Shown here: piece by piece, positions 29,278 to 63,919 of the stretch | How positions within the stretch are numbered: the first letter of the stretch is position 1 | How the letters are laid out: each line of letters starts with the position of its first letter | Assembly: GCA_028909515.1 (NCBI GenBank) | Contig: GCA_028909515.1_4811.1 | Strand: one strand, 5' to 3' | Origin: a phage | DNA: 64,000 bases | Notes under the pieces: model-generated | The model's database searches: none | What the model was told of the DNA's origin: nothing | The model's input: only the letters and a program-made list of their open reading frames with translations | Translations under genes and position numbers: made by a program

Positions 29278-29284
29278 GGTTGAC

Positions 29285-47542: not shown

Positions 47543-48726
47543 TGAACATTCCAGAATTTAATGATGAGCCAGTTATTCAGTTTAACGCGCAACAAATCGA
47601 TGCCATCGAGAAGGCCGTTGCATGGTACAAGCGATTGCAGGACGGTAAAACGACGAAGCGCGTGTTTTTCATTGCTGGCTATGCAGGGACTGGTAAAACC
47701 TCTATTGCTCGCGAGATTGTGCGCCGATGTGTCGGTGAGTACGGCGCTATCTATATTGCGCCGACCGGAAAGGCTGCAAGCCGATTAAAGCAAAAAGGCT
47801 GTCGTGGAGCTAAGACCCTCCACCAGTTCATCTATAACGTGCGCGGCGTAAATGACGATAATGAGCCAATCTTTTCGAGAAAGTCAAAGCTGGATGAAAG
47901 GCCGCACCTTGTTGTACTCGATGAAGCGTCGATGGTTGGCGAGTGGGACACAGAGCGCCTTCTTGATCACCGCATCCCTGTCCTGGCATTAGGCGACATT
48001 GGACAAGTACCTCCGGTAAAATCCGCCGCCTACTTTACTGAAGATGCCGTTGACGTACTGTTAACAGAAATCATGCGGCAAGGGAAAGAGTCCAATATAA
48101 TCCGCGCCTCCTTCTTCGTGCGCCAAGGCAACCGCCTTCCTCCGCGTGAATACGATGACGTCAAAGTATTGGCAGAATCGCCGCGCGTTACTGCATTGAA
48201 GAAATTCATGGGCGAAGATGATCAAATTATTTGCTCCTATAATAGCACCAAAGATAAATGGAATTCATTATTACGGCAAGTGAGCGGACGTATAACGCCA
48301 ATGCCAGGAATCGGCGAGAAAGTTATTTGCACCTTCAACCAGCACGGGCCAGGATTCTGTAATGGCGAGCAAGGGATTGTTATTAGCTATGAGCCAGTGC
48401 CGGACTTTGAAAGGGACGAGGACGAGTCCAATGAAATAATGTATGTCAATTTGCGCTCGCTTACCGATGGCAAAGATATAAAGGTTAAGATTAATCCTCT
48501 TTCCTTCTCTACTGATCAGGAAGTGCGCAAAGAGGCCCAACGCGCTGTTGGAGGCATGGACTATGGCTATGTCATCACGGTGCACAAATCACAAGGCAGC
48601 GAGTGGGACAATGTGTGCGTGCTGGAAGAAATCTTACGCGGCGTTCCGTACTCCAAGATGATGTACACCGCTGTCACCCGTGCTAAGAAGAATCTGACCG
48701 TGTACCGTGATTTGAAAGCGCGTTAA
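47542..48726 (+). CDS. Dda/RecD-like SF1 DNA helicase
   Basis: 394 aa. Walker A AGYAGTGKTS, Walker B VVLDEASMV, C-terminal VITVHKSQGSEW. Confidence 0.85.
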   Translation: MNIPEFNDEPVIQFNAQQIDAIEKAVAWYKRLQDGKTTKRVFFIAGYAGTGKTSIAREIVRRCVGEYGAIYIAPTGKAASRLKQKGCRGAKTLHQFIYNVRGVNDDNEPIFSRKSKLDERPHLVVLDEASMVGEWDTERLLDHRIPVLALGDIGQVPPVKSAAYFTEDAVDVLLTEIMRQGKESNIIRASFFVRQGNRLPPREYDDVKVLAESPRVTALKKFMGEDDQIICSYNSTKDKWNSLLRQVSGRITPMPGIGEKVICTFNQHGPGFCNGEQGIVISYEPVPDFERDEDESNEIMYVNLRSLTDGKDIKVKINPLSFSTDQEVRKEAQRAVGGMDYGYVITVHKSQGSEWDNVCVLEEILRGVPYSKMMYTAVTRAKKNLTVYRDLKAR

Positions 48727-48885
48727 TGTTGACGTAAATTTACGAAAAATAAAACTGAAAATCAGTTTAATTAAAGTGGCATTGCCGCCATAGTTTTTAG
48801 TTGCTACTGGCGGCGACTGAAGGCATAATTAAGTTATCCCAAACGGGGAATATAAAATAAACTAATTTATTTAAGGACTGTGAAT

Positions 48886-49725
48886 ATGGCCGAAGCAATC
48901 AAAGTATTATCTAAAGAAGAAAAACAAGCAGCCGCAGCAGAACGTCGTCGCGTGGCTGAAGAAAAACGCCTGGCTAAAAAGAAAGAAGCCGAAGAAAAAC
49001 GCCAGAAGCGTGAGCAGGAAAAACAAGCCAAGCGTGAAGAAGCTGCGCTGAAACGCAAGCAGGCTGCTGATGAGAAGGCTCAGAAGCGTGCTGAAGAAGC
49101 AGCTAAGAAAGCTAAAGAGCGTGCAGAAAAGGCTGCTGCTAAGAAAGCAGAGCGTGAAGCCGCTAAAGCAGCAAAAGAAATCGAAAAGGCAAAGGCTAAA
49201 GAAGAAGCCAAGCGCCTGAAAGCTGAGCAGGCTGCGGCCAAGAAAGCAGAGCGTGATCAAGCCCGTGCTGCAGCGAAGGCCGAAAAAGAGAAGGCCAAAG
49301 AAGAAGCTAAAGCGAAACGCAAGGCAGAGCGTGAAGCTGCTAAGATTGCGGCGAAAGAAGCTGCAGAACAGCAGAAAGAACAGCGTAAGAAAGAAGCTGA
49401 AGAACGTCGCAAAGCCATCGCAGAACGTAAGGCTGCTAAAAAGGCAAACGGTCAGCGTCGTGCAAAAGCCACTCACTTCATCTACACTGGCAATGGCCTG
49501 AGCCAGCCGCAAGAGCATTCCACCCGTGGACGCGTTCTGGCGGCGATCAAAGAAGGCGAAGTTGGCGTGGCGCAGTCTATCGATGAGCTGGGCGAAAAAG
49601 TTAAAGATCAACTGTTTGGCGCTTCCGTTCGCTCCTACCTGAGCAAGCTGGAAGAGATGGGCCACATCGAGTTTGTCGATGTTGAATCCAACGGCGATGC
49701 CGAAGACGGTGATCAAGCGGAATAA
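48886..49725 (+). CDS. Charged Glu/Lys/Ala/Arg-rich protein with a globular C-terminal domain
   Basis: ATG at 48886 with an AAGGA site (track begins at a GTG, 48880). About 190 aa of KAAK/EEKR low-complexity sequence, then an ~80 aa non-repetitive tail. Confidence 0.55.
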   Translation: MAEAIKVLSKEEKQAAAAERRRVAEEKRLAKKKEAEEKRQKREQEKQAKREEAALKRKQAADEKAQKRAEEAAKKAKERAEKAAAKKAEREAAKAAKEIEKAKAKEEAKRLKAEQAAAKKAERDQARAAAKAEKEKAKEEAKAKRKAEREAAKIAAKEAAEQQKEQRKKEAEERRKAIAERKAAKKANGQRRAKATHFIYTGNGLSQPQEHSTRGRVLAAIKEGEVGVAQSIDELGEKVKDQLFGASVRSYLSKLEEMGHIEFVDVESNGDAEDGDQAE

Positions 49726-49751
49726 CCTGTAGGACGGTTATAGCGGTAATT

Positions 49752-49778
49752 GACCCACACTTGTTGTGGGTCTTTTTT
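49752..49778 (+). terminator. Rho-independent terminator
   Basis: GACCCACA, 5 nt loop, TGTGGGTC, then TTTTTT. Confidence 0.65.
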
Positions 49779-49804
49779 CGTCTGTACTAAATAGAAATGA
49801 CTTG

Positions 49805-49833
49805 TTGCTGTAAAATAATTTAGCTATTATACT
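49805..49833 (+). promoter_or_regulatory. Sigma70-like promoter upstream of the flavoprotein gene
   Basis: TTGCTG, 17 nt spacer, TATACT. Confidence 0.4.
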
Positions 49834-49857
49834 TCTCATATCACCCACAAAGGACAA

Positions 49858-50853
49858 ATGAACATGAAACAACCTGTAATGATTATCGGCGGCGGACTGG
49901 CAGGACTTATCACCGCGTGTCACTTCCCGAACTCTATTGTGTACGAAGCAGGGGAACGAGCGCAACAGCACAAGGCACTGCTACGCTTTCGCGGCGAAGA
50001 AGTAAGCCGTATTACCGGAATCCCTTTTAAGGCCGTGACAGTTGACAAGGCTGTGTATTTTCGCGGTAACTACTACCACGACCATTGCCCAATCAACCTT
50101 GCCAATATGTATTCCATGAAGGTCACCAATCAGTTTGGCAGTCGTTCAATCATGAAGCTTAAAACTGCAACGCGTTATATTGCGCCTGATGACTTTTATG
50201 ATCAGCTTGTCGACAAACTGGGTGACCGCATATTCTTTAATACTCCGGTTGATACTCTTTGCGGCTATAGCGAGACGCCAATCATCAACACGTCGCCGCT
50301 GCCAGTAATGATGAAGCTTGCTGGGATTGATCAAAAGCTTGATTTCTCATTTGATAAAGCAAACATTCGCGTTTACCGCTTTAAGATTAAACGTAAGTGT
50401 GATTTGTATCAGACAATTTACTTCCCTGACTACTCCGTCAGAACTTACCGCGCATCAATTACTGGTGACACGCTTATCATTGAAACAATTCCTTTGGTCA
50501 GCGTGAGTGAAGCTGCAGTTGAAGCCGCTGGCGGCATCACCCGTTATCGCGACATGAAGCTGCGCGCGGAAGTGGACGAAGTTCTGACCGCTTTTGGTCT
50601 TTCATGGAATGACATCTCTTTGGAAGAAGTTGAAAAGGTTGACCAGAAGTATGGCAAGATTGTAGACATTCCGAAAGACTTGCGACACGCCTTACTGCTC
50701 CAGCTGACTATGGATTTGAACGTATTCAGTGTTGGCCGATTCGCTACATGGCGCAACATCTTGCTTGATGACGTAGCTCATGACCTTGTTGAAGTTGAAA
50801 AACTCATCAAAGCAAATAACTATCAAAAATTTGCTTATATTGCTAATAAATAA
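49858..50853 (+). CDS. FAD/NAD(P)-binding oxidoreductase-like protein
   Basis: 331 aa. N-terminal Rossmann motif VMIIGGGLAGL. Exact family not resolved. Confidence 0.5.
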   Translation: MNMKQPVMIIGGGLAGLITACHFPNSIVYEAGERAQQHKALLRFRGEEVSRITGIPFKAVTVDKAVYFRGNYYHDHCPINLANMYSMKVTNQFGSRSIMKLKTATRYIAPDDFYDQLVDKLGDRIFFNTPVDTLCGYSETPIINTSPLPVMMKLAGIDQKLDFSFDKANIRVYRFKIKRKCDLYQTIYFPDYSVRTYRASITGDTLIIETIPLVSVSEAAVEAAGGITRYRDMKLRAEVDEVLTAFGLSWNDISLEEVEKVDQKYGKIVDIPKDLRHALLLQLTMDLNVFSVGRFATWRNILLDDVAHDLVEVEKLIKANNYQKFAYIANK

Positions 50854-50895
50854 TTTGCTTTCTTCTTCAATGTGCGTATACTTTAATCATTGAAG
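50854..50895 (+). promoter_or_regulatory. Sigma70-like promoter with an inverted repeat straddling the -10
   Basis: TTTGCT, 17 nt spacer, TATACT. CTTCAATG at 50865-50872 pairs with CATTGAAG at 50888-50895. Confidence 0.4.
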
Positions 50896-50918
50896 CAGAA
50901 CTCATAGAGGAAACGAAA

Positions 50919-51365
50919 ATGAAACGAATCACTGGAATCGCGCTTGCCGCGACTGCTATTCTCGGCACCATGTATATGGAAGCGACTGAAGCCGCCGTCC
51001 GTACTTCCGATTCAATCGCTGTTTACGATTGTGAAGCGATGGACGGTAAGACCGCAGCAACGACTGGTGCGAAGATTACCACTTACATCGGTGTGAATGA
51101 GCAAGAAGGTCTGAATATTCAGATTCAGGGATTCACGGGAAAAGGCGCCAACCGGACTCCGTGGATGCAGCGTTTCACTTTCGTTCAACCTCGTTCAACT
51201 GGCGCCTTTATCAACCTGATTGGTGAAAACCGTTCTGGTGCAGAAATCTTTACATCAATGAGTTCCAATAATGAACCAAAGAAAAGTTTTCAGTTGCTTT
51301 ATAACGCACAATTCGTTTATCATTGCACCTTCTCTGGTGATCAGCAACTAGTTAACTACCGTTAA
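50919..51365 (+). CDS. Secreted or periplasmic protein
   Basis: 148 aa. Signal-peptide-like N-terminus MKRITGIALAATAILG. Confidence 0.5.
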   Translation: MKRITGIALAATAILGTMYMEATEAAVRTSDSIAVYDCEAMDGKTAATTGAKITTYIGVNEQEGLNIQIQGFTGKGANRTPWMQRFTFVQPRSTGAFINLIGENRSGAEIFTSMSSNNEPKKSFQLLYNAQFVYHCTFSGDQQLVNYR

Positions 51366-51378
51366 TAGGATAATTAAA

Positions 51379-52182
51379 ATGAAAGTTGAATTAATTCGAT
51401 ACACCCAAGATGCACTTGACCTTTTGCTGGAAACAAAGAACACGCGCATGACTGGTAAGCCAGTCTCTGAGATGACAGAATCAGAGAAGCAAGAGCACTG
51501 GCGATACATGCTTGACACAATCAAGTCGCCTTTTGATTTTGTGGACTATATCTTTGACATCACTGATGTATCAAAGAATATGACTCATCAGATGGTGCGC
51601 ACGCGCACAGGTGCATATCAAGAACGTACAAGCCGCGCTCAGGAATCTTCTGCTTTTGATGCGATTCGTCCTGCCAAATTTACTTACCCAGAGGATGATC
51701 CAAAGGGATGGACTCGTCATGACGAGAAGGCTGCTGAACTGGCAGAGAAATGGGATGATGCGATGGCCACGATTGACGCCCTCTACCAAGAGCTTCGCGC
51801 GGCTGGCGCAGAGATTCAAGATGCACGTGCCGTGTTGCCTTCTAATATGCAAACGCATATCATGGCAAAGTTCAACTTGCGAACGCTGCAACAGATGGCG
51901 TCAAACCGCTTGTGCACGCGCACCCAAGGCGAGTATCAGGAAGTTTTCCGTGCGATGGTAGCTGAAGTCCTCAAGGTGCATCCGTGGGCTAATCCTTTAC
52001 TACAGCCGCAATGCATCGGCATGGGCAAGTGCGCATTCCCTCGCCATGGCAAGGCCCATTGCCCTTGGTATCGTGATTGGATGGATACCACTGCACAGCA
52101 AGAAGAATTACGCATCCAGTTTTGGAATGCAATGCCAATCACCAATAATCCGGTTGCCAAAGATGGAGTATCAAAAGGATGA
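51379..52182 (+). CDS. ThyX-like protein (flavin-dependent thymidylate synthase fold) with altered signature motif
   Basis: 267 aa. C-terminal ARAVLPSNMQTHIMAKFNLRTLQQMASNRLC resembles ThyX. The canonical RHR...S motif position reads VRTRTGAYQERTS. Confidence 0.55.
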   Translation: MKVELIRYTQDALDLLLETKNTRMTGKPVSEMTESEKQEHWRYMLDTIKSPFDFVDYIFDITDVSKNMTHQMVRTRTGAYQERTSRAQESSAFDAIRPAKFTYPEDDPKGWTRHDEKAAELAEKWDDAMATIDALYQELRAAGAEIQDARAVLPSNMQTHIMAKFNLRTLQQMASNRLCTRTQGEYQEVFRAMVAEVLKVHPWANPLLQPQCIGMGKCAFPRHGKAHCPWYRDWMDTTAQQEELRIQFWNAMPITNNPVAKDGVSKG

Positions 52183-53051
52183 GCATTAAAAACAGCGAAA
52201 TCTTAAACGTATTCGACCTTGACGGAACGCTGTTTGATGACCGTTGGCGCTTAGACCGCATCAAGGTGGCAGGTCCGTTGTCAGACTATGATGACTATCA
52301 CAGCGGTATTGGTTATGATCAGTTCTATCCTCACATTGCATCAGCAGTAGAGTCGGCATCTCTTCGCGGTGAGGCGGTTGAATATTGGACTGCAAGGCCA
52401 GAAAAATACAGACAAGTGACTTTTGAACGTCTGGACAATGTTTTCCCTTTTGATGAATTTACAATCAAGATGAGAGACTATGGCGACAAACGTCCATCAA
52501 CTATCATGAAATCTGCATGGCTATCGCACGCATTGCGGCACGGTGATTATCGAATCATCAATGTATTCGACGACCGACAAGACGTACTCGCGCGGATGCA
52601 AGATGAAGCATTGTATTATAATTCCGTTGCTCAAAATAAAATCGCTTTTACATTTAATCTTTGCAAGGCAGGTGAAGTGGTGCAACAATTAGCAATTGAT
52701 CCAAGCGCAACAGGGCAAGAAGAGACTAAGGCTGTGGAAGTTGAACAATCTCCGGCAACTGCCGCCGATATTCTTGATGCAATGGCAGCAACCTTCCGTG
52801 AGCGCAACGCTGTCTATGGCGATAACGCTGTGATGGTAGGTCAGGTTATGCAGGTGCTTTTCCCTAATGGCGTAACGTTGAAAACGCCGGAAGACTACCA
52901 CATGTGGCATCTGTTCGAGCTTAAGATTGTCAAGCTTACACGCTTTGCAATCAGCGGCCTGAAGCACGAAGACTCTATACACGATGATGGTGTTTACAGC
53001 GCCATGTGTGAACGTCTTGTAAACACCCATAATATTAATTTCAATAAATAG
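52179..53051 (+). CDS. HAD-family phosphatase fused to an unassigned C-terminal domain
   Basis: 290 aa. Motif I LNVFDLDGTLFDD and motif IV INVFDDRQD in the N-terminal ~150 aa. Confidence 0.55.
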   Translation: MSIKNSEILNVFDLDGTLFDDRWRLDRIKVAGPLSDYDDYHSGIGYDQFYPHIASAVESASLRGEAVEYWTARPEKYRQVTFERLDNVFPFDEFTIKMRDYGDKRPSTIMKSAWLSHALRHGDYRIINVFDDRQDVLARMQDEALYYNSVAQNKIAFTFNLCKAGEVVQQLAIDPSATGQEETKAVEVEQSPATAADILDAMAATFRERNAVYGDNAVMVGQVMQVLFPNGVTLKTPEDYHMWHLFELKIVKLTRFAISGLKHEDSIHDDGVYSAMCERLVNTHNINFNK

Positions 53052-53095
53052 TTTACTTGTGCGTTTCGATGAGTTATATTTACCTCATCGAAACG
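53052..53095 (+). promoter_or_regulatory. Sigma70-like promoter with an 11-12 bp inverted repeat straddling the -10
   Basis: TTTACT, 17 nt spacer, TATATT. CGTTTCGATGAG pairs with CTCATCGAAACG. The leader TCATCGAAACGAA recurs at 59915. Confidence 0.45.
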
Positions 53096-53116
53096 AAGTC
53101 CAAAAAGGATAAATAA

Positions 53117-53800
53117 ATGAAAAAAGTAATTGTTGTAACAGGTTCCAATTCCGGTCTTGGTAAATCTATTTTTGACACCCTTGGCGCTTACGGTCATAAC
53201 GTGCTTGGCATCGATTCAGCATACGGATATGACGTCCGCGATGCTAAACAGATGAAAGAAATTTTAAGCCCATATGATGTTGAAGGCTTGATCAACTGTG
53301 CTGGTGTCAACTCTAACAACTGGTTCGAAGATGTTAACTACGAAGAGTTCAATCGCGTTATGCACACCAACGCCTTCTCTTTCGTCAACACGACTCAGGC
53401 CGCGCTGAAAAGTCTTATCGACAACAAAGGCTTTGTGATCAACATCGTTTCCAACGCTGCGCATATTCCTATGACGTCCAGCTTGTGTTATAATGCATCC
53501 AAGGCTGCTGCGCTTATGATCAGCAAGCAGATGGCTCACGAACTTACGCCTAAGTACGGCATCACGGTATTCTCTATTAGTCCTAACAAGTTGCGCGGCA
53601 CTGGCATGTCTAAACAGATTGAAGATGCCGTTTGTGCGACTCGCGGCTGGACTCCTGAATACGCTGCTGAATACCAGAAAAAGGCATTGATGAATGGATT
53701 GGAGACTGAGCCGCAAGTAATTGCCGACTTCATTCGCCATATCTTAATTACGGGCGCATGGCGCTTTATGTCTGGCACTGATATTCCATTTGGTAAATAA
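53117..53800 (+). CDS. Short-chain dehydrogenase/reductase (SDR) family oxidoreductase
   Basis: 227 aa. Motifs VIVVTGSNSGLGKS, NCAG and catalytic YNASK. Confidence 0.75.
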   Translation: MKKVIVVTGSNSGLGKSIFDTLGAYGHNVLGIDSAYGYDVRDAKQMKEILSPYDVEGLINCAGVNSNNWFEDVNYEEFNRVMHTNAFSFVNTTQAALKSLIDNKGFVINIVSNAAHIPMTSSLCYNASKAAALMISKQMAHELTPKYGITVFSISPNKLRGTGMSKQIEDAVCATRGWTPEYAAEYQKKALMNGLETEPQVIADFIRHILITGAWRFMSGTDIPFGK

Positions 53801-53896
53801 ATCACGAACATTTTAAGTTGTCACACCCGCTCCTGAAAAGAAACAGGACGAAGACAACACAGTAATTAATCAATAATATTTAATTAAGGAAACAAA

Positions 53897-54448
53897 ATGC
53901 CACATTTTAAAATTGAACAAATCGCCCTGTCAATTCCAGATGCTCAGCGCGCACAGGATTTCTTGGCTAAAATCGGCCTGACGGAATGGTTCCATGATCA
54001 TGTTGTTGCTACTGGTCGCGTATTTGAAGCTGATGACTTTAAAGGTCGTCGCGACGATTGCACCAATGAAGCTGACTTGCGCTTCAACTATCAGGCTGGC
54101 AACGGTACTGATGGCGGCGCTGGTAAGCCTCTTGAGCTTGAAATACTTGACTACACAATGGGCTGCAACTGGATTAACGAAAACATCGAATATATCGATG
54201 CGCATGACAATCAGGTCAGCCACCTTGGCATGCATGTGACTGCCGCTGAACTTGCTGAATGGCGTAAGTTCTTTAGCGAAGAAGGCATTCAGGTTGCACA
54301 GGAAGTTGTAACTGACTCTCATACCAACCCGAACATTGCTGGTCAACGTCGTTACAACTATGTGATCTTTGATACGCGTGAAATCATCGGTGTTGATTTG
54401 AAGTTTATCGTGCGCTTGAATCAAGACGGTACTCCGTACACTGTATAA
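53897..54448 (+). CDS. Hypothetical protein, possibly glyoxalase/VOC-like
   Basis: 183 aa. N-terminal KIEQIALSIPDAQRAQDFLAKIGL pattern. Weak assignment. Confidence 0.35.
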   Translation: MPHFKIEQIALSIPDAQRAQDFLAKIGLTEWFHDHVVATGRVFEADDFKGRRDDCTNEADLRFNYQAGNGTDGGAGKPLELEILDYTMGCNWINENIEYIDAHDNQVSHLGMHVTAAELAEWRKFFSEEGIQVAQEVVTDSHTNPNIAGQRRYNYVIFDTREIIGVDLKFIVRLNQDGTPYTV

Positions 54449-54464
54449 CGAATCGTGAATCTGT

Positions 54465-54489
54465 GGCCGTCCTAATGGGCGGCCTTTTT
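54465..54489 (+). terminator. Rho-independent terminator
   Basis: GGCCGTCC, 4 nt loop, GGGCGGCC (one G-U pair), then TTTTT. Confidence 0.6.
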
Positions 54490-54502
54490 GTAGGAGGCTA
54501 AT

Positions 54503-55045
54503 GTGTTATTTCTCCCTTATGACTTCGAAACAACCGGATTGACCGTGCACCCGAAAGCGCCGCTTGGGATGCAGCCGCGCCCTATTGAATTTGCAGGTCT
54601 GTTGACAGACGGCAAAGAGATTCTTGAAACGTTTGAATTCATAATTAATCCTGAAATCGTGATTGAAGAAATTATCACAAAGATTACCGGATTAACAAAT
54701 GAAGACCTTGAGTGCAATCCACCATTCATCAATTTCGTCCCGCAGCTAAAAGAAATCTTCAAGAAGACTGATGCAACTATCGCGCACAACCATGCGTTCG
54801 ATAAAAACATTCTTGATTATGCACTACAGCGCGAAGGACTTACGCTTGATGATGTTAATTTTCCAGAAATAAACATATGTACAGTTGAGCAAACCTTGCC
54901 TATTTTTGGCCGAAGAGTTAAGCTTCAAGAGCTGTATGAATTATATTTCGGAAAATATGAACAGAAGCACCGTGCATTAGACGACGTAATATTACTGCAC
55001 AAAGTCTGCCAACAAATTGGCGTATATGACATCTGGAGTAAATAA
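54503..55045 (+). CDS. DnaQ-like 3'-5' proofreading exonuclease
   Basis: 180 aa. GTG start with AGGAGG site. Exo motifs LPYDFETTGL, AHNHAFDKNIL and HRALDDV. Stop overlaps the polymerase start. Confidence 0.8.
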   Translation: MLFLPYDFETTGLTVHPKAPLGMQPRPIEFAGLLTDGKEILETFEFIINPEIVIEEIITKITGLTNEDLECNPPFINFVPQLKEIFKKTDATIAHNHAFDKNILDYALQREGLTLDDVNFPEINICTVEQTLPIFGRRVKLQELYELYFGKYEQKHRALDDVILLHKVCQQIGVYDIWSK

Positions 55046-57942
55046 TGTTTCCACAATTGAGAGTTCGCAGCGGTTACACGTTCAAAGAAGTTTATGGACG
55101 GCATCCTGAAATTATAGCACGGCTCAAAGAGTTGGGCTGCGAAGTCGCGGCATTAGTTGATAACAACACATGGGGTCACGTCCGCTGGGAAAAGGAATGC
55201 CAGAAAAATGATATTAAGCCTATGTTTGGGATGGAGATTCCAATCATCGACCCTGATGCGGACCCTAAAAAGGGATTCAAACCGAAGGCTTGGATATTGG
55301 CCCTTGACTTAAAATCTTTTTACAACGCTACGACACTTGCAACGCAGCGTGGTGGCCTTACCCGTGCAGAGTTCGGTGCGCTTGATGGCGTCGTTAAATT
55401 CTGTGGCGGTGCCGTTGAGCTGCTGCGGCCAGAGGACTACGATTATATAGACGTCAACCCATCATCGTTCCTTTTGGCTAAGCGCCAGGTGTTGGCTCAC
55501 CGCAGCAACGGAAGGCCGCTGGTTTTAACCGGATACAACCACATGCCTTCACCTAAGCACGTTGACTTTGCTTATGCTTGGGAAGTGCGCGACACGGTCA
55601 AGCCGCACTGCATCGTTGACGCGGAAGACTTGCGCAAACAGCTTAAAGGCATCTTGACTGAAGATGAGCTCAATCAGGCAACGGCCAATGCTGTTGACAT
55701 AGCAAACGGCATAGTCGGACTTGACCTGAAATTGCGTAAGGCACCGATTATTCACCTTGCTGGTGACATGGTAAAGCTTGCTCGCGAGGGGATGGAGTAT
55801 CGTCTCAAAGCAGGTCACATCAAAGAGTGGACTCAGGAATATGAGGACCGCTTCAACGAAGAAATTCACCAGATTCAGCTGAAAGATTTCGACTCATACT
55901 TTCTGGTAGTAGCGGACCTTGTACGATTCGCAAAAACAAAAATGCTCGTCGGGCCTGCTCGCGGCTCATCGGCTGGTTCACTTGTTTGCTATTGCCTCGG
56001 CATCACGGAAGTGGACCCAATCCCGTATAAGCTGCTGTTTGCCCGATTCATCGACGTAAGCCGCGCCGACCTTCCTGACATCGACATCGACTTTGAAGAT
56101 ACCAAACGCTACATGGTGTTTGATTATCTTAAAGAGAAATATGGCGAAATGAACGTTGCAAAGCTTGGCAACATCAACACGCTTAAGGCCAACTCAGTAA
56201 TGGCGCAGGTTGGTAAGAAGTTCAACATTGGATACCACGAAACGGCCAACATTAAAAACGCACTGCTTGAATACTCATCCGGTGACGCCCGTTATGGTCA
56301 CGGCCTGGAGGATACCTTTGCAACAACGACCACGGGCCAAGAGTTTGTGGCGAAATATCCTGACGCCGCGCGTTGCATGGGTGACCTTGAGATTCACCCG
56401 TCTCACACAGGTGTTCACGCAGCGGGAATCATTGTGTGTAATGACCCAATCTCTGATTACTGTACTGTAACTGCAGAAGGGATTGCGCAAATCGATAAGC
56501 CTGACAGCGAATACCTAAACCTTTTGAAGCTTGATGCGCTGGGCCTTCGTACTCTCGGAATCATTTCTGATACTGGCGTGATAGATGCTGAAACGCTGTA
56601 CGGAATCAAGCTTGATGACCAAAGCGTCCTTGACATCCTTAACGAAAACAAGATGTCAGGCATCTTCCAGTTTGAAGGCGACGCTGTACGCTCAGTAACC
56701 AACTTTGTGCACGTTGATAACTTTAACAAAATCGATAACCTGACAGCACTTGGCCGACCTGGCCCGTTGTCGTCCGGTATGGCCCAGAAATACATTGAAC
56801 GCGCGGCAGGACGTGCGCCGATTGAGTACGACGTGCCGCAGCTTGAGCCGTACTTAAAAGAGACTTACGGCGTGTTTCTTTACCAAGAGCAAATCATGGC
56901 CGTGGTTAAAGAGATTGGTTCATTTGACTGGGCGAAAACATCCGCTGTACGTAAGGCGATGTCAGGTCGTAAGGGTGAGGAATACTTTAACAAGCTTGGC
57001 GAAGACTTCGTTGCAGGAGCAATAAATAACGGCGTACCGGAAGCGGATGCAAGAAAGCTTTGGCAAGCGATGGCGACGTTCGGGTCATGGGGCTTTAACA
57101 AGTCACACTCCGTATCATACGCGGTCGTGACCTACTGGACCTTGTGGCTTAAGCGACACTACCCGTTGGAATTTGCCGCTGCTTGCTTACGCGCTGCTAA
57201 GGACGAAGACCAGACGATTGCGATATTACGTGAACTTGCGAAGGAAGGCGTGGATTATGTGCCAATCGACCCTGATCACTCTTCAATGAACTGGACCATC
57301 GCTAACGGAAAGCTAATCGGCGGCATCATGAACGCAAAAGGATATGGCATGGTGAAGGCAATGAAGTATATCGAAGCACGTGAAGCCGGAACCTTAACGC
57401 AAAAGCAAAAGGATGCATTGGCCAATGCTGAAGTCAAATACGGCGACCTTACAGAGATGCACACAAAGTTCGGATGGGCATATAATGACCCCTATCTGAT
57501 TGGCGTTACTTCCGGTGCTTCAATACGCCAGATGAAGGAAGTCGGCGATGACGAGCGTGCAATAGTGATCGGCAAGTTGACCAAGAAAGTGCTGGCTGAC
57601 GAGAACGAAGCGACACGCATCCGTAAACGTCTTGAGCGCGGCATTTATACAAAGCACGGCAAACTTAAAAAGGGTCTTCAAGCTGATGGCCGCTACGCAG
57701 AGTTTGACCAGTATGGAAACAAGCTTGAGACTCAGTTCATTGACCTTATGTGCAAGGACGATTCGACCGACTCGCCAATGCGCTTCAGGATTCGTCCAGA
57801 GAAGTTCCAGAAATACGGGAAATACATTGCAGAGAACGTCGGGAACGGCGCATTCTTCCTGATGAAAGGCCGCAAACTTGAAGGCATTGACATGTTCATC
57901 GTCGACGTTATCAAACAGGTGTATCCAGATGGCAACAAATAA
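55045..57942 (+). CDS. DNA polymerase III alpha-like (DnaE family) replicative polymerase
   Basis: 965 aa. Catalytic LPDIDIDFED and SYAVVTYWTLWLKRHYPLEFAAACL. N-terminus QLRVRSGYT sits where PHP domains carry a His-x-His metal site. Confidence 0.8.
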   Translation: MFPQLRVRSGYTFKEVYGRHPEIIARLKELGCEVAALVDNNTWGHVRWEKECQKNDIKPMFGMEIPIIDPDADPKKGFKPKAWILALDLKSFYNATTLATQRGGLTRAEFGALDGVVKFCGGAVELLRPEDYDYIDVNPSSFLLAKRQVLAHRSNGRPLVLTGYNHMPSPKHVDFAYAWEVRDTVKPHCIVDAEDLRKQLKGILTEDELNQATANAVDIANGIVGLDLKLRKAPIIHLAGDMVKLAREGMEYRLKAGHIKEWTQEYEDRFNEEIHQIQLKDFDSYFLVVADLVRFAKTKMLVGPARGSSAGSLVCYCLGITEVDPIPYKLLFARFIDVSRADLPDIDIDFEDTKRYMVFDYLKEKYGEMNVAKLGNINTLKANSVMAQVGKKFNIGYHETANIKNALLEYSSGDARYGHGLEDTFATTTTGQEFVAKYPDAARCMGDLEIHPSHTGVHAAGIIVCNDPISDYCTVTAEGIAQIDKPDSEYLNLLKLDALGLRTLGIISDTGVIDAETLYGIKLDDQSVLDILNENKMSGIFQFEGDAVRSVTNFVHVDNFNKIDNLTALGRPGPLSSGMAQKYIERAAGRAPIEYDVPQLEPYLKETYGVFLYQEQIMAVVKEIGSFDWAKTSAVRKAMSGRKGEEYFNKLGEDFVAGAINNGVPEADARKLWQAMATFGSWGFNKSHSVSYAVVTYWTLWLKRHYPLEFAAACLRAAKDEDQTIAILRELAKEGVDYVPIDPDHSSMNWTIANGKLIGGIMNAKGYGMVKAMKYIEAREAGTLTQKQKDALANAEVKYGDLTEMHTKFGWAYNDPYLIGVTSGASIRQMKEVGDDERAIVIGKLTKKVLADENEATRIRKRLERGIYTKHGKLKKGLQADGRYAEFDQYGNKLETQFIDLMCKDDSTDSPMRFRIRPEKFQKYGKYIAENVGNGAFFLMKGRKLEGIDMFIVDVIKQVYPDGNK

Positions 57943-58351
57943 CCGTGAACAGAAATACATATTCGTGCCTTTGAAGAAGCATTCAGAATCAATCTTGAAG
58001 CTTCAAAGAATCGAATCAATGACGGGTGATGGTGTGCCGGACGTAATCGGCACCAACCGGAAAGGGCGCGGCTTTTGGCTTGAAATGAAGTTCTTTGAAT
58101 CGTGGCCTGCAAGGGCCACCACTCTTCCTTTCAAGAGCGCATTTGAGAAAGGTCAACAAAGCTTTTTGACTTCTTGGAGTGATTGGAAATTCTCGTCATT
58201 CGTGTTGCTGAAGGTGGACTCTGAAAAGGCTTATTATTTAGTTCACCCTTCATTGCGATTAAAAGAATATACTAAGCATGAGATTCTGGCTATGGTCGCC
58301 GCGAGCGGGTCCATCCATCACATCATCAAGTATTTAGAGGAATTGTCATGA
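57929..58351 (+). CDS. VRR-NUC-like nuclease
   Basis: ATG MATNNREQ overlaps the polymerase 3' end. Motif GVPDVIGTNRKGRGFWLEMKF resembles a PD-(D/E)xK site. Confidence 0.5.
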   Translation: MATNNREQKYIFVPLKKHSESILKLQRIESMTGDGVPDVIGTNRKGRGFWLEMKFFESWPARATTLPFKSAFEKGQQSFLTSWSDWKFSSFVLLKVDSEKAYYLVHPSLRLKEYTKHEILAMVAASGSIHHIIKYLEELS

Positions 58352-59871
58352 AAACACAAGGGATGCGCCACCAGCTTCTGGCGCTTGATAAAGCAGGCCG
58401 CAGAAAATACTTTGCCTATTTCATGGAACAGGGTCTTGGTAAAACTTGGACCGCTTTGGCAGAGTTTGAAAAGCACTTCACTGCTGGCGCGTTCGATGCC
58501 ATGGTCGTCATCGCTCCAAACGGTGTCCACTCCAACTGGATTCGTCGTGAAGCACCAGAACACCTTTCCATCAAGTGGATTGGGCACTACTGGCGCGGCA
58601 ACGACAAGATGAAGACTAAAAAGGGCAAGGTGCTTTGGGAGAAGATGTTTGCTGATCACTACCCTGAAGGCGAAGTGCCTGCGCGCATCTTCTCATTCAA
58701 CATCGATACCGTCAACACACCAGTAGGTTATCAACACATCGAGTCGGTCTTGAAGAAATACCGCTGCCTGATGATCATTGATGAATCGACTCGCATCAAA
58801 AATAACACAGCAAAACGCTCCATCAAGGTCGTGGAATTGGGTCGGCTGGCAAAGGCCCGTCGAATCCTTTCTGGCACGCCGCTGCCGCGCTCGCCTGCGG
58901 ATATTTACATGCAATATCACTTCCTTGAAGCAGGCTTGCTCGGCACCAAATCTTTCCGCGCCTTCAACTCTGAATTCACTGTGCTACTTGAAGCGCACGA
59001 CCCAGAAATGCAAGCCATCCTCAAGAAAATCGGCGGCAATGGCTATGGGATTCCGCAAGTGCCGCGCAAAGACCAGTTTGGCCGACCGATGTACAAAAAC
59101 CTTGACAAGCTTATCCGGCTGATGGAACCGCACTATTTTCGTGCGACAAAAGCGGAATACTTGCCTGACCTTCCAGAGAAGGTGTATAAGTTTATCGACT
59201 TCGAGCTGTCGCCTAAACAACGCGATGTCTACGATGAACTCAAGAATGAGTACAACTATTTGATGGAATACAAGGGCGAAGAAGAAAACGTTAAGTTTGA
59301 GATGATCGCATCTCGCACTAAGATGAAGCAGGTTACATCAGGCTTTGTTAAGGTGTATGATGAGATGGTCTACATGGAAGACAACCCACGATTCACGGCC
59401 TTTAAGGACTATGTGGAAGGGGTGCTGGAAGACGACCCAGAGCGCAAATTCATTGTTTGGGCCATCTTTAAGGAAGAGATGAACCAGATTAAGGATTGGC
59501 TTGAGTCTGAAGGAGTGGTCACTGGTGTATATAACGGTGAGACGTCAAAAGAGCAGCGTGAGTTCTTGATTGATGACTTCCAGAAGAACACAGTCGAGAA
59601 CGGTGGGACGCAAGTGCTTGTTTGTCACGCTGCAGCGGCAGGAATCGGTATCACGCTTACCGCCGCCGACTTGGCAATCTATTATTCTTGCAACTATGAC
59701 AACGAGTTGCGCAAGCAATCTGAAGACCGAAATCACCGAATCGGCACAAAATCAAGCGTGTTGTATGTTGATTTTATTGGTGTTGATACCATCGACGAAG
59801 AAATTCAGCGTTCATTAAGTATGAAGTCTATGCTTGCTGATCACATCCTCGACGGCAAAAAGATGAATTAA
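58348..59871 (+). CDS. SNF2-family helicase
   Basis: 507 aa. Motif I MEQGLGKTWTAL, motif II MIIDESTRIKN, C-terminal block QSEDRNHRIGTKSSV. Confidence 0.8.
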   Translation: MKTQGMRHQLLALDKAGRRKYFAYFMEQGLGKTWTALAEFEKHFTAGAFDAMVVIAPNGVHSNWIRREAPEHLSIKWIGHYWRGNDKMKTKKGKVLWEKMFADHYPEGEVPARIFSFNIDTVNTPVGYQHIESVLKKYRCLMIIDESTRIKNNTAKRSIKVVELGRLAKARRILSGTPLPRSPADIYMQYHFLEAGLLGTKSFRAFNSEFTVLLEAHDPEMQAILKKIGGNGYGIPQVPRKDQFGRPMYKNLDKLIRLMEPHYFRATKAEYLPDLPEKVYKFIDFELSPKQRDVYDELKNEYNYLMEYKGEEENVKFEMIASRTKMKQVTSGFVKVYDEMVYMEDNPRFTAFKDYVEGVLEDDPERKFIVWAIFKEEMNQIKDWLESEGVVTGVYNGETSKEQREFLIDDFQKNTVENGGTQVLVCHAAAAGIGITLTAADLAIYYSCNYDNELRKQSEDRNHRIGTKSSVLYVDFIGVDTIDEEIQRSLSMKSMLADHILDGKKMN

Positions 59872-59884
59872 TATCAAAAATAAT

Positions 59885-59930
59885 TTGACTTGTCACGGAA
59901 GATGAGTCATAATTACTTCATCGAAACGAA
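59885..59930 (+). promoter_or_regulatory. Sigma70-like promoter with a conserved leader
   Basis: TTGACT, 17 nt spacer, CATAAT, then leader TACTTCATCGAAACGAAACAG, nearly identical to the leader at 53081. Confidence 0.5.
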
Positions 59931-59945
59931 ACAGAGGAATACAAA

Positions 59946-60209
59946 ATGGTACGCATCCTTGAACGTTACAAAAATGAAGCTACTGGTGCAATCGCTTTCA
60001 AACGTCTTTTGGTCAAAGAAATTGACGGGATGTTCCGCGTTGTTAAAGAGTTTGATTATGGCAACGGTGCTGGGGTGAATACCGTTATTATGCCTGGCAT
60101 CAAGGCATATAAAACATTGAAAGGCGCTGAGAAGGCTTTGGCGGCTTGGAAACCTGAACGTTATCAAATGACCCGTGTTGAAGGGCTAATGCAAGAAGGT
60201 AAAATATGA
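59946..60209 (+). CDS. Hypothetical protein
   Basis: 87 aa ORF. Confidence 0.4.
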   Translation: MVRILERYKNEATGAIAFKRLLVKEIDGMFRVVKEFDYGNGAGVNTVIMPGIKAYKTLKGAEKALAAWKPERYQMTRVEGLMQEGKI

Positions 60210-60763
60210 GCAATATTAATTGGGAAGATGATTTGCCGCAGGTCGCTCCTGAGAGCATTCAAGAGCGCCTTGCGCGCTTAGTATCTGAACTGGCAGAACG
60301 CCAAGAAGCTTTGACAGAGCTTGAAGATGAAGCTGATATGCAAAAGCAGCGAATCAGTGAAATCAAAACTGTTCTGCTTCCTGGCGTTATGGATGAGCTT
60401 GGCGTGTCCGAAATCAAGCTTGAGGACAAGACCAAAATCAAGGTCGAGTCCAAGGTGAACGCTTCAATCAAGAAAGAAAACGAATTAAAAGTTTTCGATT
60501 GGCTTGTCAACAACGGTTACGGCGGCTTGATCAAGTCCAGCGTCACGGCTGAGTTCGGTCGCGAAGAAATCGAACAGGCGCAAGAGATTGTTGCCGCGCT
60601 GCGTGAAGATGGTGTTGAAGCCACGTTGAAACAAGGCGTTCATTCTGCTACACTGAAGTCGTTTGTAAAAGAACAGCTGGAAGCGGGCAATCCAGTTAGT
60701 GAAGATATTAGCGTTTTTGAATACAAAGAAGCTAAAATAACCTTGCCTAAAAGCAAAAAGTAA
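60206..60763 (+). CDS. Hypothetical acidic protein
   Basis: 185 aa. Acidic, helix-like N-terminal region. Confidence 0.4.
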   Translation: MSNINWEDDLPQVAPESIQERLARLVSELAERQEALTELEDEADMQKQRISEIKTVLLPGVMDELGVSEIKLEDKTKIKVESKVNASIKKENELKVFDWLVNNGYGGLIKSSVTAEFGREEIEQAQEIVAALREDGVEATLKQGVHSATLKSFVKEQLEAGNPVSEDISVFEYKEAKITLPKSKK

Positions 60764-60822
60764 TTTAACCTTTATCTTGAAATCAGGTTGCCACGAAACT
60801 TGATACTATAGGAAAATATCAA

Positions 60823-61683
60823 ATGTCTAAGAAAGAAACCACCGAAGTTGCAGTGAAAAACACCCAGATGTCCGCTATGGCTGATTTTGTCGACATGACC
60901 GATTTTGGCGCTGGTTTTGAAGGTGCCGATGCCGATGCGTATGCCATTCCTTTTATCGTCGTACTGCAGAAGATGTCTCCTATGGTCGACGAAGATGATC
61001 CGAAACACGTTCCTGGCGCAAAAGCTGGCATGCTTTACAACACCGTTACTGGTGAGTTGTATGACGGCAAGAAAGGCGTGCAGATCATCCCTTGCGCATT
61101 CAAACGCACCTTCATTCTTTGGGGCGGTCGCGAGTCCGACGATAAAGGCTTTAAAGGTGAATTCACCAAAGAGCACGTTGATGCAGAAGTCGCGGCAGGC
61201 CGCGCTGTTGAGATCAACGGTAAGGTATTCGTGCCGGACGAAAACGGCAAGGTGCACGAGAAGAAATCTCCTTACTACGCAGATACACGCAACCACTTCG
61301 TAATTCTGTTGAACGAAGAAACTGGTGAATTTGGTAGCGCAATGCTGTCTCTGACTTCTTCCATGATCAAGCCGTCTCGCATGCTGATGACCGCCCTGCA
61401 GCAGAAGAAAGTTCAGACTCCGCAGGGTCTGAAAACGCCGCCGACCTTTATGAACATTGTTCGCATGGGTACTGCATCCCAGTCCAAAGACGGCAATACA
61501 TGGTCTGTTCTGAAGTTTGAGCTGGAAGGTCTGGTGCAGGACAAAGGTCTGTACGAAGTCGCCAAGGCATTCCACAACGACGTAGTTGGCGGTAACGTTA
61601 ACATCGACCGCAGCAAGCAGGAAGAAGCAAGCGGTGCCGCTGGTCCTGTCAATGAAACTCCGACCGACGCAGAAGAGTTTTAA
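60823..61683 (+). CDS. ssDNA-binding protein-like (acidic C-terminal tail ending in Phe)
   Basis: 286 aa. C-terminus ETPTDAEEF resembles SSB interaction tails. No OB-fold verified. Confidence 0.4.
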   Translation: MSKKETTEVAVKNTQMSAMADFVDMTDFGAGFEGADADAYAIPFIVVLQKMSPMVDEDDPKHVPGAKAGMLYNTVTGELYDGKKGVQIIPCAFKRTFILWGGRESDDKGFKGEFTKEHVDAEVAAGRAVEINGKVFVPDENGKVHEKKSPYYADTRNHFVILLNEETGEFGSAMLSLTSSMIKPSRMLMTALQQKKVQTPQGLKTPPTFMNIVRMGTASQSKDGNTWSVLKFELEGLVQDKGLYEVAKAFHNDVVGGNVNIDRSKQEEASGAAGPVNETPTDAEEF

Positions 61684-61702
61684 TCGACAATCAAATCAAC
61701 AA

Positions 61703-61728
61703 GGCTGCCGTTTGGCGGCCTTTTATTT
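61703..61728 (+). terminator. Rho-independent terminator
   Basis: GGCTGCC, GTTT loop, GGCGGCC (one G-U pair), then TTTTATTT. Confidence 0.55.
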
Positions 61729-61740
61729 ATCTGGTGCATC

Positions 61741-62256
61741 ATGATAGAAAGAATTGTACCGCTCCTGAAGATTCTGGCCCTTGTTGGCGCGTTTGCCGCT
61801 GGATCATACGTTGAAGACCTGCAGCAAACCAACGCATCACTGGCCAAGGATAATCAATATCTGACATCGCTTAATGAGCGTAAGGACAAGATAAATGCAC
61901 TCGAAGAGCAAATTGCAACTTTACAGGTTGAATCGGCATCGGCATATGAGAAGGGTCGCCAGGAAGCGCAACTGGTTGCTGATGACACTATTGCTCGTTA
62001 CAAGTCTGGGAATGTCAAGTTGCGCGAGCAACTCAGCTGCTCCCGTGAGTTACTCAGGAGTGTGCCCGACTCTGCGACCACTGGACGCCTCTCTATCCCA
62101 GAAGGAAACTGTGGACTATCAGAAGAGGATGTCAGATTTCTTGTTCAGTTCGCCGCAGAAACAAATCGATTAAAAGAGAAAGTTAATAGCTTGATTGATA
62201 CTTATAATCAGGCTAAAATAAAAATCGATCAATTCAATGCATCAAAGGAAAAATAA
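61741..62256 (+). CDS. Inner-membrane spanin (Rz-like)
   Basis: 171 aa. N-terminal transmembrane segment LLKILALVGAFAAG, then a coiled-coil-like domain with one Cys. A lipoprotein ORF is embedded in the +1 frame. Confidence 0.55.
   Translation: MIERIVPLLKILALVGAFAAGSYVEDLQQTNASLAKDNQYLTSLNERKDKINALEEQIATLQVESASAYEKGRQEAQLVADDTIARYKSGNVKLREQLSCSRELLRSVPDSATTGRLSIPEGNCGLSEEDVRFLVQFAAETNRLKEKVNSLIDTYNQAKIKIDQFNASKEK
61895..62173 (+). CDS. Outer-membrane spanin (Rz1-like lipoprotein), embedded in the Rz-like gene
   Basis: ORF lies wholly inside 61741-62256 in another frame. Hydrophobic stretch then Cys (LLLVTSLGMSSC), Pro-containing mature part. True start uncertain. Confidence 0.4.
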   Translation: MHSKSKLQLYRLNRHRHMRRVARKRNWLLMTLLLVTSLGMSSCASNSAAPVSYSGVCPTLRPLDASLSQKETVDYQKRMSDFLFSSPQKQID

Positions 62257-62880: not shown

Positions 62881-62882
62881 TT

Positions 62883-63845: not shown

Positions 63846-63919
63846 GACACTAGATAAATAATTGATGCGGATAATCTATCGCGTCGTTTTATAGAATTTA
63901 ATATACAGTGTATACATAA

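What the first reader, a model, noticed from the sequence alone, without database searches (positions are those of the whole stretch)
50854..59930. Recurrent promoter class with inverted repeats straddling the -10 and a shared leader
Upstream of the genes at 50919, 53117 and 59946, a sigma70-like -35/-10 pair is overlapped by an inverted repeat with one arm in the spacer and one in the first transcribed bases. Two of the three share the leader TCATCGAAACGAA. This suggests a common operator or a conserved 5' RNA hairpin marking a temporal gene class.
Basis: seen in the sequence. Interest (0 to 1): 0.45.

Follow-up and report, generated by a model that had tools for sequence, protein, structure and literature searches.

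The report
Conserved phage promoter-leader cassette with stem-loops
Three host-type promoters inside the DNA-replication genes of an E. coli phage (Wifcevirus) belong to an old promoter-plus-leader cassette also found in Pseudomonas phages, and each overlaps a stem-loop; this is a modest new variant of known phage regulatory cassettes, not a shared operator.

Summary
The window is a Wifcevirus, an E. coli myovirus related to Pseudomonas PB1-like phages. All three sites are sigma70-type promoters filling 65-74 bp gaps between co-directional replication and nucleotide-metabolism genes.

The inverted repeats are real at P1 (8 bp perfect, 12/13 extended; 13/13 in ten other Wifceviruses) and P2 (12/12, z=-5.8). 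P3's repeat is only 5 bp, which is chance level. P3's conserved structure is instead a hairpin inside the -35/-10 spacer, supported by covariation across seven lineages.

CYCA-TCGAAACG follows the -10 at five promoters of Pseudomonas phage 14-1. Published start-site mapping there puts +1 at the A. By homology, P2 and P3 mRNAs begin 5'-AUCGAAACGAA at 53087 and 59920.

The upstream arm lies before the start site, so the promoter's own transcript cannot contain a 5' hairpin. The arms differ in sequence and register between sites, so a common operator is unlikely.

Best reading: stem-loops interleaved with internal promoters, forming only in read-through RNA, plus a conserved 5' leader of unknown role. 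This is a new variant of a known kind, of moderate interest.

The parts
50854..50859 (+). P1 -35 hexamer TTTGCT, directly after the stop codon of the 331-aa gene
   Evidence: The same hexamer occurs at other predicted promoters of the window. The promoter is inferred, not mapped.
50860..50872 (+). P1 upstream arm TTCTTCTTCAATG in the spacer (8 bp perfect core at 50865-72)
   Evidence: Pairing is 12/13 in the window and 13/13 (TTCTGCTTCAATG) in 10 other Wifceviruses.
50877..50882 (+). P1 -10 hexamer TATACT, in the 15-nt loop between the arms
50888..50900 (+). P1 downstream arm CATTGAAGCAGAA, a diverged copy of the leader. Predicted start site is A50889.
   Evidence: It sits in the same register after the -10 as P2's CATCGAAACGA. 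The start site is inferred from 14-1 homologues.
50901..50918 (+). Second leader-like block CTCATAGAGGAAACGAAA, ending at the ATG of the 148-aa gene
   Evidence: compare CCCATAGGAAACGCAAA after the -10 in locus L020. The resemblance is weak (nhmmer E=0.28-4).
53052..53057 (+). P2 -35 hexamer TTTACT
53062..53073 (+). P2 upstream arm CGTTTCGATGAG ('anti-leader') in the spacer
53075..53080 (+). P2 -10 hexamer TATATT, in the 10-nt loop
53084..53097 (+). P2 downstream arm CTCATCGAAACG (53084-95) and shared leader TCATCGAAACGAA (53085-97). Predicted start site is A53087.
   Evidence: TACCTCATCGAAACG is identical to the sequence after the -10 of 14-1 promoter P049.
59885..59890 (+). P3 -35 hexamer TTGACT
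59887..59908 (+). P3 conserved stem-loop inside the spacer: GACTTGTC / loop ACGGAA / GATGAGTC (8 pairs, 2 of them G.U)
   Evidence: Across 10 orthologues 96% of cells pair and 6 of 8 pairs show compensatory changes. The only variable position in Wifceviruses is in the loop.
59908..59913 (+). P3 -10 hexamer CATAAT
59918..59930 (+). P3 shared leader TCATCGAAACGAA. Predicted start site is A59920.
49752..49772 (+). Context: canonical terminator upstream of the unit that holds P1 and P2
   Evidence: annotated as a terminator in phages WFH and Mansfield
54465..54484 (+). Context: canonical terminator that ends the P1/P2 unit. No terminator-like site was predicted in either intergenic gap that holds P1 or P2, so read-through across them is likely.
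61701..61722 (+). Context: canonical terminator downstream of the P3 unit

Best explanation
P1, P2 and P3 are host sigma70-type promoters internal to the replication and nucleotide-metabolism gene block of a Wifcevirus.

P2 and P3, and a decayed P1, are copies of a promoter-plus-5'UTR cassette. Its form is -35 TTKACT, 17 nt, -10, 3-4 nt, CYC-A-TCGAAACG, an A-rich leader, a Shine-Dalgarno site, then ATG. The cassette is conserved across PB1-like myoviruses of E. coli, Pantoea and Pseudomonas. Transcription starts at the A, so the 'shared leader' is the first bases of the mRNA (5'-AUCGAAACGAA, from 53087 and 59920).

The inverted repeats are neither a shared operator nor a 5' hairpin. The upstream arm lies before the start site, so the stem-loop can form only in RNA that reads through from the upstream gene, or in DNA.

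The most likely role is an intercistronic stem-loop marking or protecting the end of the upstream message. It is interleaved with the promoter because the gap is only 65-74 bp, and the arms occupy the sequence-free spacer and leader. At P3 the conserved stem-loop lies wholly within the spacer.

Shown here: the anatomy, the homology, the covariation at P3, and the recurrence of the repeats. Taken from a published supplement: the start sites in 14-1. Inferred: the start sites in this phage, action at the RNA level, and the stabiliser or attenuator role. The function of the conserved leader is unknown.
For: Identity and context:
- The window is 95-97% identical to Wifcevirus genomes and syntenic with Myosmarvirus, Kylevirus and Pbunavirus.

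Leader:
- An nhmmer/regex census finds the cassette at five 14-1 promoters (E 1e-6 to 1e-16). It is also in IMG/VR relatives L016, L031 and L051 and in Pantoea phage Kyle.
- Table S3 of bioRxiv 10.1101/2023.10.13.562163 maps start sites P001=707, P006=4479, P009=6637, P028=49234 and P049=65240. Each listed upstream region ends in ...CYCA.

Repeats:
- Of 13 independent family promoters, 4 have a perfect repeat of at least 9 bp with the -10 in the loop: P1 13, P2 12, L016 12, L031 9 (13/14 extended). About 0.09 are expected.
- P1 and P2 differ at three arm positions, each with a matching change in the other arm (sequences; compared by eye).

P3 hairpin:
- 96% of cells pair against 70% in shuffles and 25-45% when slid. 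Six of 8 pairs covary. U.G pairs and C(UUCG)G loops point to sense-strand RNA.

Context dependence:
- In the window, 5 of 7 co-directional promoters without a separate terminator overlap a stem-loop (z <= -1.9). None of 6 divergent promoters or 3 terminator-preceded promoters does.
- Read-through across the cassette promoter P028 is documented in 14-1 (TU030, TU031).
Against: - No start site or 3' end has been mapped in any Wifcevirus.
- The stem-loops lack a T-tract, and the P1 and P2 loops are long (15 and 10 nt). They are not intrinsic terminators.
- In 14-1 no termination site was called at the P025 hairpin or the P049 repeat.
- 14-1 sigma70 promoters as a whole are not enriched in structure (mean z +0.29; only P025 is below -2).
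- Variation within Wifcevirus is too small to test P1 or P2 covariation. There are two C-to-T changes giving G.U, and one unpaired change in the window itself.
- L031's single mismatch is C.A on the sense strand.
- The co-directional versus divergent contrast was classified after the fact on 16 promoters.
Confidence: 0.6

Rival explanations
1. Common operator. A dimeric phage or host DNA-binding protein recognises the inverted repeats over the -10 and start site, and switches this promoter class off or on at a set time.
For: - The P2 repeat is a perfect 12-bp palindrome-like site over the core promoter.
- P2 and L031 use the same arm sequence, GTTTCGATGAG / CTCATCRAAAC.
- The leader half-site is conserved at every family member.
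Against: - P1, P2 and L016 arms are different sequences.
- Loop lengths are 4, 9, 10, 15 and 27 nt, and the symmetry centre moves by about 5 bp relative to the -10.
- P3 and four of the five 14-1 copies have only the downstream 'half-site'.
- Matched changes in both arms between P1 and P2 fit pairing rather than protein contacts.
Confidence: 0.1
2. DNA cruciform or supercoiling sensor. The arms extrude as a cruciform that places the -10 in a single-stranded loop, making promoter strength depend on template topology.
For: - The -10 lies in the loop in every case.
- The P2 loop is short and AT-rich.
- The concept has a precedent in an engineered E. coli promoter (Horwitz and Loeb 1988) and in N4 hairpin promoters. 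Both are cited from memory, not checked here.
Against: - Loops of 15 nt (P1) and 27 nt (L016) strongly disfavour extrusion.
- The G.U pairs and UUCG tetraloops of the related P3-type hairpins are RNA features.
- Cassette promoter P001 of 14-1 works in plain reporters.
Confidence: 0.08
3. No function. The repeats are by-products of template-switch 'quasipalindrome correction' or of local inverted duplication of the leader, and are tolerated because the spacer sequence is free.
For: - The window's own P1 carries an uncompensated mismatch.
- 14-1 copies work without a repeat.
- Perfect repeats are what that mutational process produces (general knowledge).
Against: - The repeats arose in at least three lineages, in different registers.
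- The arms are invariant across all Wifcevirus genomes inspected, apart from two G.U-compatible changes and the window's own mismatch.
- They are restricted to co-directional contexts.
Confidence: 0.15
4. Divergent or antisense promoter. The symmetric P2 site also fires on the minus strand, using a TTGGAC-like -35 in the leader, giving an antisense RNA into the polynucleotide kinase gene.
For: The cassette profile also matches the minus strand at 53095-53060 (E=5e-4). This follows from the repeat and the near-palindromic -10.
Against: - The minus-strand -10 lacks a good TATAAT match.
- No comparable signal exists at P1 or P3.
- No experimental hint.
Confidence: 0.04

Closest known systems
Sigma70-like promoters of Pseudomonas phage 14-1 (Pbunavirus) mapped by ONT-cappable-seq: P001, P006, P009, P028, P049 (Putzeys et al. 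2024, PMC10914365; bioRxiv supplement Table S3)
   Same: They share the -35 TTTACT, the 17-nt spacer, a -10, then 3 nt and CYC-A-TCGAAACG with an A-rich leader and Shine-Dalgarno site. TACCTCATCGAAACG is identical between P049 and window P2. P028 sits at the position orthologous to P1.
   Different: That study analysed only -50 to +1, and its main text held here does not mention the leader. The 14-1 copies lack the long repeats (P049 has 7 bp; the others at most 6). The host and genus differ, and P2 and P3 sit before other genes.
PeSLs, promoter-early stem-loop cassettes of T4-like phages (Arbiol 2010, PMC2839356; Comeau 2014, PMC4122927)
   Same: Both are short repeated intergenic cassettes that combine a strong sigma70-like promoter, an AT-rich upstream region and a stem-loop acting on transcription coming from upstream.
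   Different: In PeSLs the stem-loop is adjacent to and upstream of the promoter, is typically GGGG...CCCC, and was shown to terminate. PeSLs also flank ORFans in hyperplastic regions and mediate recombination. Here the arms are interleaved with the -35, -10 and start site, there is no polyG/polyC and no T-tract, the genes are core replication genes, and there is no sequence homology.
Intercistronic mRNA-stabilising hairpins (for example REP-type or 3' stem-loop barriers to exonucleases; general knowledge)
   Same: Each is a stem-loop a few bases after the stop codon of an upstream cistron, has no U-tract, and is conserved as structure rather than sequence.
   Different: These share their bases with a functional promoter, and a stabilising effect has not been measured.
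Operator sites overlapping core promoters (for example lambda or P22 repressor operators; general knowledge)
   Same: An inverted repeat lies over the -10 and start site.
   Different: Operators of one regulator share sequence and spacing. These do not.

Membership tests
Bacterial sigma70-type promoter | -35 and -10 hexamers resembling TTGACA and TATAAT, 16-18 bp apart | tested here: met
   P3 scores 10/12 and P2 9/12 in the scan. P1 has a good -10 but a weak -35 (TTTGCT) and is not listed by the scan.
Bacterial sigma70-type promoter | Transcription start about 7 nt after the -10, shown experimentally | not testable with these tools
   No data exist for this phage. Homologous promoters of 14-1 have mapped starts at the equivalent A.
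PB1-like phage promoter-leader cassette (defined here from 14-1 P001/P006/P009/P028/P049) | CYCA start context 3-4 nt after the -10, followed by TCGAAACG | tested here: met
   P2 has CTCATCGAAACG and P3 has TTCATCGAAACG (nhmmer E=1e-10). P1 matches only partly, with TCATTGAAGCAG (E=0.28-4).
PB1-like phage promoter-leader cassette (defined here from 14-1 P001/P006/P009/P028/P049) | A-rich unstructured leader of about 30-40 nt ending in AAGGA-type Shine-Dalgarno site and ATG | tested here: met
   Alignment. The 5'UTR folds have z of -0.2 to -0.6.
PeSL (T4-like promoter-early stem-loop) | Stem-loop adjacent to, not inside, the promoter, typically with polyG/polyC arms | tested here: not met
   The arms lie in the spacer and leader (P1, P2) or between the -35 and -10 (P3). 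There is no G or C run.
PeSL (T4-like promoter-early stem-loop) | Stem-loop works as a transcription terminator | not testable with these tools
   No T-tract, and the terminator scan lists none of the three sites. No termination site was called at the 14-1 orthologue P025.
PeSL (T4-like promoter-early stem-loop) | Many copies flanking variable ORFans and mediating shuffling | tested here: not met
   There are two to three copies per genome, between conserved syntenic genes in 29 Wifceviruses.
Shared operator of one dimeric regulator | Same repeat sequence and same spacing at each regulated promoter | tested here: not met
   P1, P2 and L016 arms are unrelated in sequence. Loops range from 4 to 27 nt. 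P3 lacks the upstream arm.
Intrinsic (rho-independent) terminator | GC-rich stem, 3-8 nt loop, then a T-tract | tested here: not met
   None of the three sites is reported by the scan. Loops are 10 and 15 nt, and the sequence after the arms is AAGTCC (P2) or CTCATA (P1).
Any Rfam RNA family | Covariance-model match | tested here: not met
   No match at E<=1 in 47000-64000 on either strand.

The most novel reading that the evidence does not exclude
The 5'-terminal leader AUCGAAACG is a recognition tag for a factor conserved across PB1-like phages or their hosts. That factor would control the translation, decay or escape of this mRNA class. The spacer-borne 'anti-leader' at P1, P2, L031 and L016 would be an isoform switch. 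It masks the tag in read-through transcripts, so only promoter-initiated mRNAs carry an exposed tag.
Probability: 0.15. Interest if true: 0.65.

Novelty: new variant of a known kind. Interest (0 to 1): 0.42.

Why it matters
PB1-like phages (Pbunavirus) are among the most used therapeutic Pseudomonas phages. Wifceviruses are reported to replicate unusually fast. Both rely entirely on host RNA polymerase.

A start-site-proximal leader kept almost letter for letter between phages of Pseudomonas and E. coli points to a conserved step in early or middle gene expression that nobody has examined. The published 14-1 promoter analysis stopped at +1.

The promoter-interleaved stem-loops show how these dense genomes fit two signals into about 65 bp. 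They give compact, portable promoter-plus-leader parts that are already known to work in both hosts.

If the anti-leader pairing is regulatory, it would be a simple way to distinguish promoter-initiated from read-through mRNAs.

Tried and rejected
1. Searching the window for more copies of the leader. Only P2, P3 and the inverted P2 arm were found; the other hits are 2-mismatch chance matches in coding DNA. No copy was found in the roughly 4 kb of genome outside the window, judged from phage Bas99.

2. Rfam search of 47-64 kb returned nothing.

3. The idea that all sigma70 promoters of this phage group embed a hairpin was rejected. The 26 mapped 14-1 promoters have mean z +0.29, and only P025 is structured.

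4. Reading the stem-loops as intrinsic terminators was rejected. There is no T-tract, they are not predicted, and no termination site lies at the 14-1 counterparts.

5. Covariation within Wifcevirus could not be tested. 29 genomes are 93-100% identical at P1 and P2, which is too little variation.

6. P2 orthologues in more distant FabG-carrying contigs (L016-L021) have no promoter there at all.

7. A literature search for described Wifcevirus promoters found only generic prediction methods. Ceyssens 2009 on PB1-like regulatory motifs is not held.

8. Comparing the arms from memory with known E. coli operator consensus sequences (FadR, PurR, CRP, Fur) gave no convincing resemblance. No tool was used.
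Full report
**What the window is.** The 10.5 kb around the finding is 95-97% identical to Wifcevirus genomes (E. coli myoviruses Bas99, SP13, WFC, WFH, ECML-117). At lower identity the same gene order recurs in Serratia MyoSmar, Erwinia TropicalSun, Pantoea Kyle, Xanthomonas XcP1 and more than 200 Pseudomonas Pbunavirus records. That order is ThyX, polynucleotide kinase, FabG-like reductase, Pol III exonuclease and alpha subunit, then helicase.

The three sites fill 65-74 bp gaps between co-directional genes. Canonical terminators lie at 49752, 54465 and 61701, but none was predicted in the gaps holding the three promoters (annotated). P1, P2 and P3 are therefore internal promoters that upstream transcription should read across.

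**Checking the observation.** The hexamers are as described.
- P1: TTTGCT-17-TATACT.
- P2: TTTACT-17-TATATT.
- P3: TTGACT-17-CATAAT.

The generic scan lists P2 and P3 but not P1, whose -35 is weak.

I measured the longest perfect repeat with one arm in the spacer and one after the -10, and compared it with 20,000-30,000 random positions.
- P2 has 12 bp (P about 2-5e-4).
- P1 has 8 bp (P about 0.01).
- P3 has 5 bp (P about 0.3-0.5).

P1 extends to 12/13 in the window and is a perfect 13-bp repeat in all ten other Wifceviruses I inspected. None of 13 other promoter-like sites in the window exceeds 6 bp.

As RNA, the P2 region folds at -21.7 kcal/mol (z=-5.8). P1 in the window gives z=-0.8 to -2.2, depending on the flanks. 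For P3 the best fold is a different hairpin, inside the spacer.

The 13-mer TCATCGAAACGAA occurs exactly at P2 and P3.

**The leader is ancient and is the 5' end of the mRNA.** CTCATCGAAACG, or a one-mismatch variant, follows the -10 by 3 nt at five sigma70-like promoters of Pseudomonas phage 14-1. These lie upstream of gp02, gp08, gp12, gp65 and gp88.

It also appears in uncultivated relatives L016, L031 and L051 and, slightly altered, in Pantoea phage Kyle. After the -10, TACCTCATCGAAACG is identical between window P2 and 14-1 gp88, although the spacers cannot be aligned.

The bioRxiv supplement of the ONT-cappable-seq study lists start sites for exactly these promoters: P001=707, P006=4479, P009=6637, P028=49234 and P049=65240. 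Every listed upstream region ends ...CYCA, so +1 is the A before TCGAAACG. [quoted passage not shown]

By homology the window transcripts start at A53087, A59920 and probably A50889, and begin 5'-AUCGAAACGAA. That study analysed only -50 to +1, and I found no description of the leader in the papers held.

The upstream arm is at about -26 to -14, so it is absent from the promoter's own transcript. The predicted 5'UTRs are unstructured (z about 0). A '5' RNA hairpin' is therefore excluded.

A common operator is also unlikely. The P1 arms (CTGCTTCAATG/CATTGAAGCAG) and the P2 arms (CGTTTCGATGAG/CTCATCGAAACG) differ, and P3 and four of the five 14-1 copies have no upstream arm.

**The repeat is nevertheless a recurrent, selected-looking feature.** Among 13 independent family promoters, four carry a perfect repeat of at least 9 bp with the -10 in the loop, where about 0.09 are expected.
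- P1: 13 bp, loop 15 nt.
- P2: 12 bp, loop 10 nt.
- L016: 12 bp (CGTGTACGTTTG/CAAACGTACACG), loop 27 nt.
- L031: 9 bp perfect, 13/14 extended (GTTTCGATGAGTTG/CAACTCATCAAAAC), loop 9 nt.

14-1 P049 has 7 bp. Registers and symmetry centres differ between sites, which argues against a fixed-geometry protein site and for base pairing.

P1's downstream arm sits in the same register after the -10 as P2's leader and looks like a diverged copy of it. The three positions that differ within the arms are matched by complementary changes in the upstream arms (my comparison of the sequences).

**P3 and the RNA argument.** The promoter after the helicase gene is orthologous in Wifcevirus, Kyle, MyoSmar/MTx, 14-1, L030, L031 and L051. 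In all of them a hairpin runs from the 3' half of the -35 to the base before the -10 (z -2.3 to -5.4).

On an ungapped alignment, 96% of cells pair, against 70% in shuffles (0/500 reach it) and 25-45% when slid. Six of 8 pairs show compensatory changes. U.G is the commonest pair at one position, and two lineages have C(UUCG)G tetraloops. Both features point to sense-strand RNA.

Within Wifcevirus the only variable base in this stretch is in the loop (C, T or G). The 14-1 orthologue, P025, is a mapped sigma70 start site. This hairpin lies upstream of its own promoter's start site, so it can exist only in read-through RNA.

**A unifying reading, with its limits.** In the window, five of seven co-directional promoters without a separate terminator overlap a stem-loop: P1, P2, P3, 48801(+) and 45972(-), all with z <= -1.9. 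None of six divergent-region promoters or three terminator-preceded promoters does. By hand calculation Fisher's exact test gives about 0.005, but the classification was post hoc.

Read-through across the cassette promoter P028 is documented in 14-1 (TU030, TU031). Terminator and promoter overlaps occur elsewhere: 14-1 T004/P009 and window 28510-28560.

I therefore read the repeats as intercistronic stem-loops squeezed into the promoter's free positions. They are functionally nearest to the promoter-early stem-loop cassettes of T4-like phages, but interleaved with the promoter rather than adjacent to it.

Against a terminator role:
- There is no T-tract.
- The loops are long.
- No termination site was called at the 14-1 counterparts.

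A stabilising, processing or attenuating role is inference only. 14-1 promoters in general are not structured, so this is not a universal property of the family.

**What remains open.** The function of the conserved leader is unknown. Candidates are an initial transcribed sequence that favours promoter escape, an unstructured translation leader, or a tag for a conserved factor.

It is also open whether the 'anti-leader' at P1, P2, L031 and L016 masks the leader in read-through RNA. Variation among 29 Wifceviruses is too small to test P1 or P2 covariation: there are two C-to-T changes giving G.U, and one unpaired change in the window itself.

**Verdict.** The finding is a real, recurrent promoter class with a deeply conserved 5' leader and promoter-interleaved stem-loops. 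The operator and 5'-hairpin interpretations are not supported. It is a new variant of a known kind of phage regulatory cassette, of moderate interest.

Noticed in passing
window 32064-33543 (+): The motif ATAGTGCAAAT occurs 9 times with at most 1 mismatch, all on the + strand within 1.5 kb (expected 1.9; 0/100 shuffles reach 9). Some copies sit 10-15 nt before start codons, for example 32648 before the ATG at 32668. It may be another promoter or leader class.
   Followed up: partly
window 17811-18073 and 33758-33941: Repeats built on GATACGGAT (GATACGGATGATACGG): six copies in both orientations in the 563-bp gap at 17.7-18.3 kb, plus two inverted copies near 33.8-33.9 kb (expected 0.03). They could be iterons, an origin or a packaging site.
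   Followed up: partly
window 31087(-), 31484(-), 31530(+): A third promoter family: gtgcTTTACT, a shared spacer cgtacact, TATAAT or TATACT, and a shared leader ATATCGrGAcGGG. The extended -35 AAGTGCTTTACT is the same as at 14-1 promoters.
   Followed up: no
window 48795-48830 (+) and 45972-45915 (-): Two more internal promoters of the replication region overlap stem-loops (z=-2.6 and -1.9). The leader at 45972(-) contains TGAAGCAGAG, like P1's TGAAGCAGAA, and pairs with its own -35 region.
   Followed up: partly
window 28510-28560 (+): Overlapping terminator and promoter: the hairpin GGCGCTgaaaAGCGCC is followed by TTTACTTT, which serves both as the T-tract and as the -35 of a TTTACT-16-TATACT promoter.
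   Followed up: no
window 30461-30537: A direct repeat CT(T/A)TATAAAACAACGACTTACGCGA occurs twice, 52 bp apart, in a 385-bp non-coding stretch.
   Followed up: no
L006 (Pantoea phage Kyle) 8713-8800: A cassette-type promoter (TTGACG-17-GATAAT, leader CTATCGAAAC, ATG about 8790) lies inside the annotated start of CDS KYLE_77. That gene's start is probably called too far upstream.
   Followed up: no
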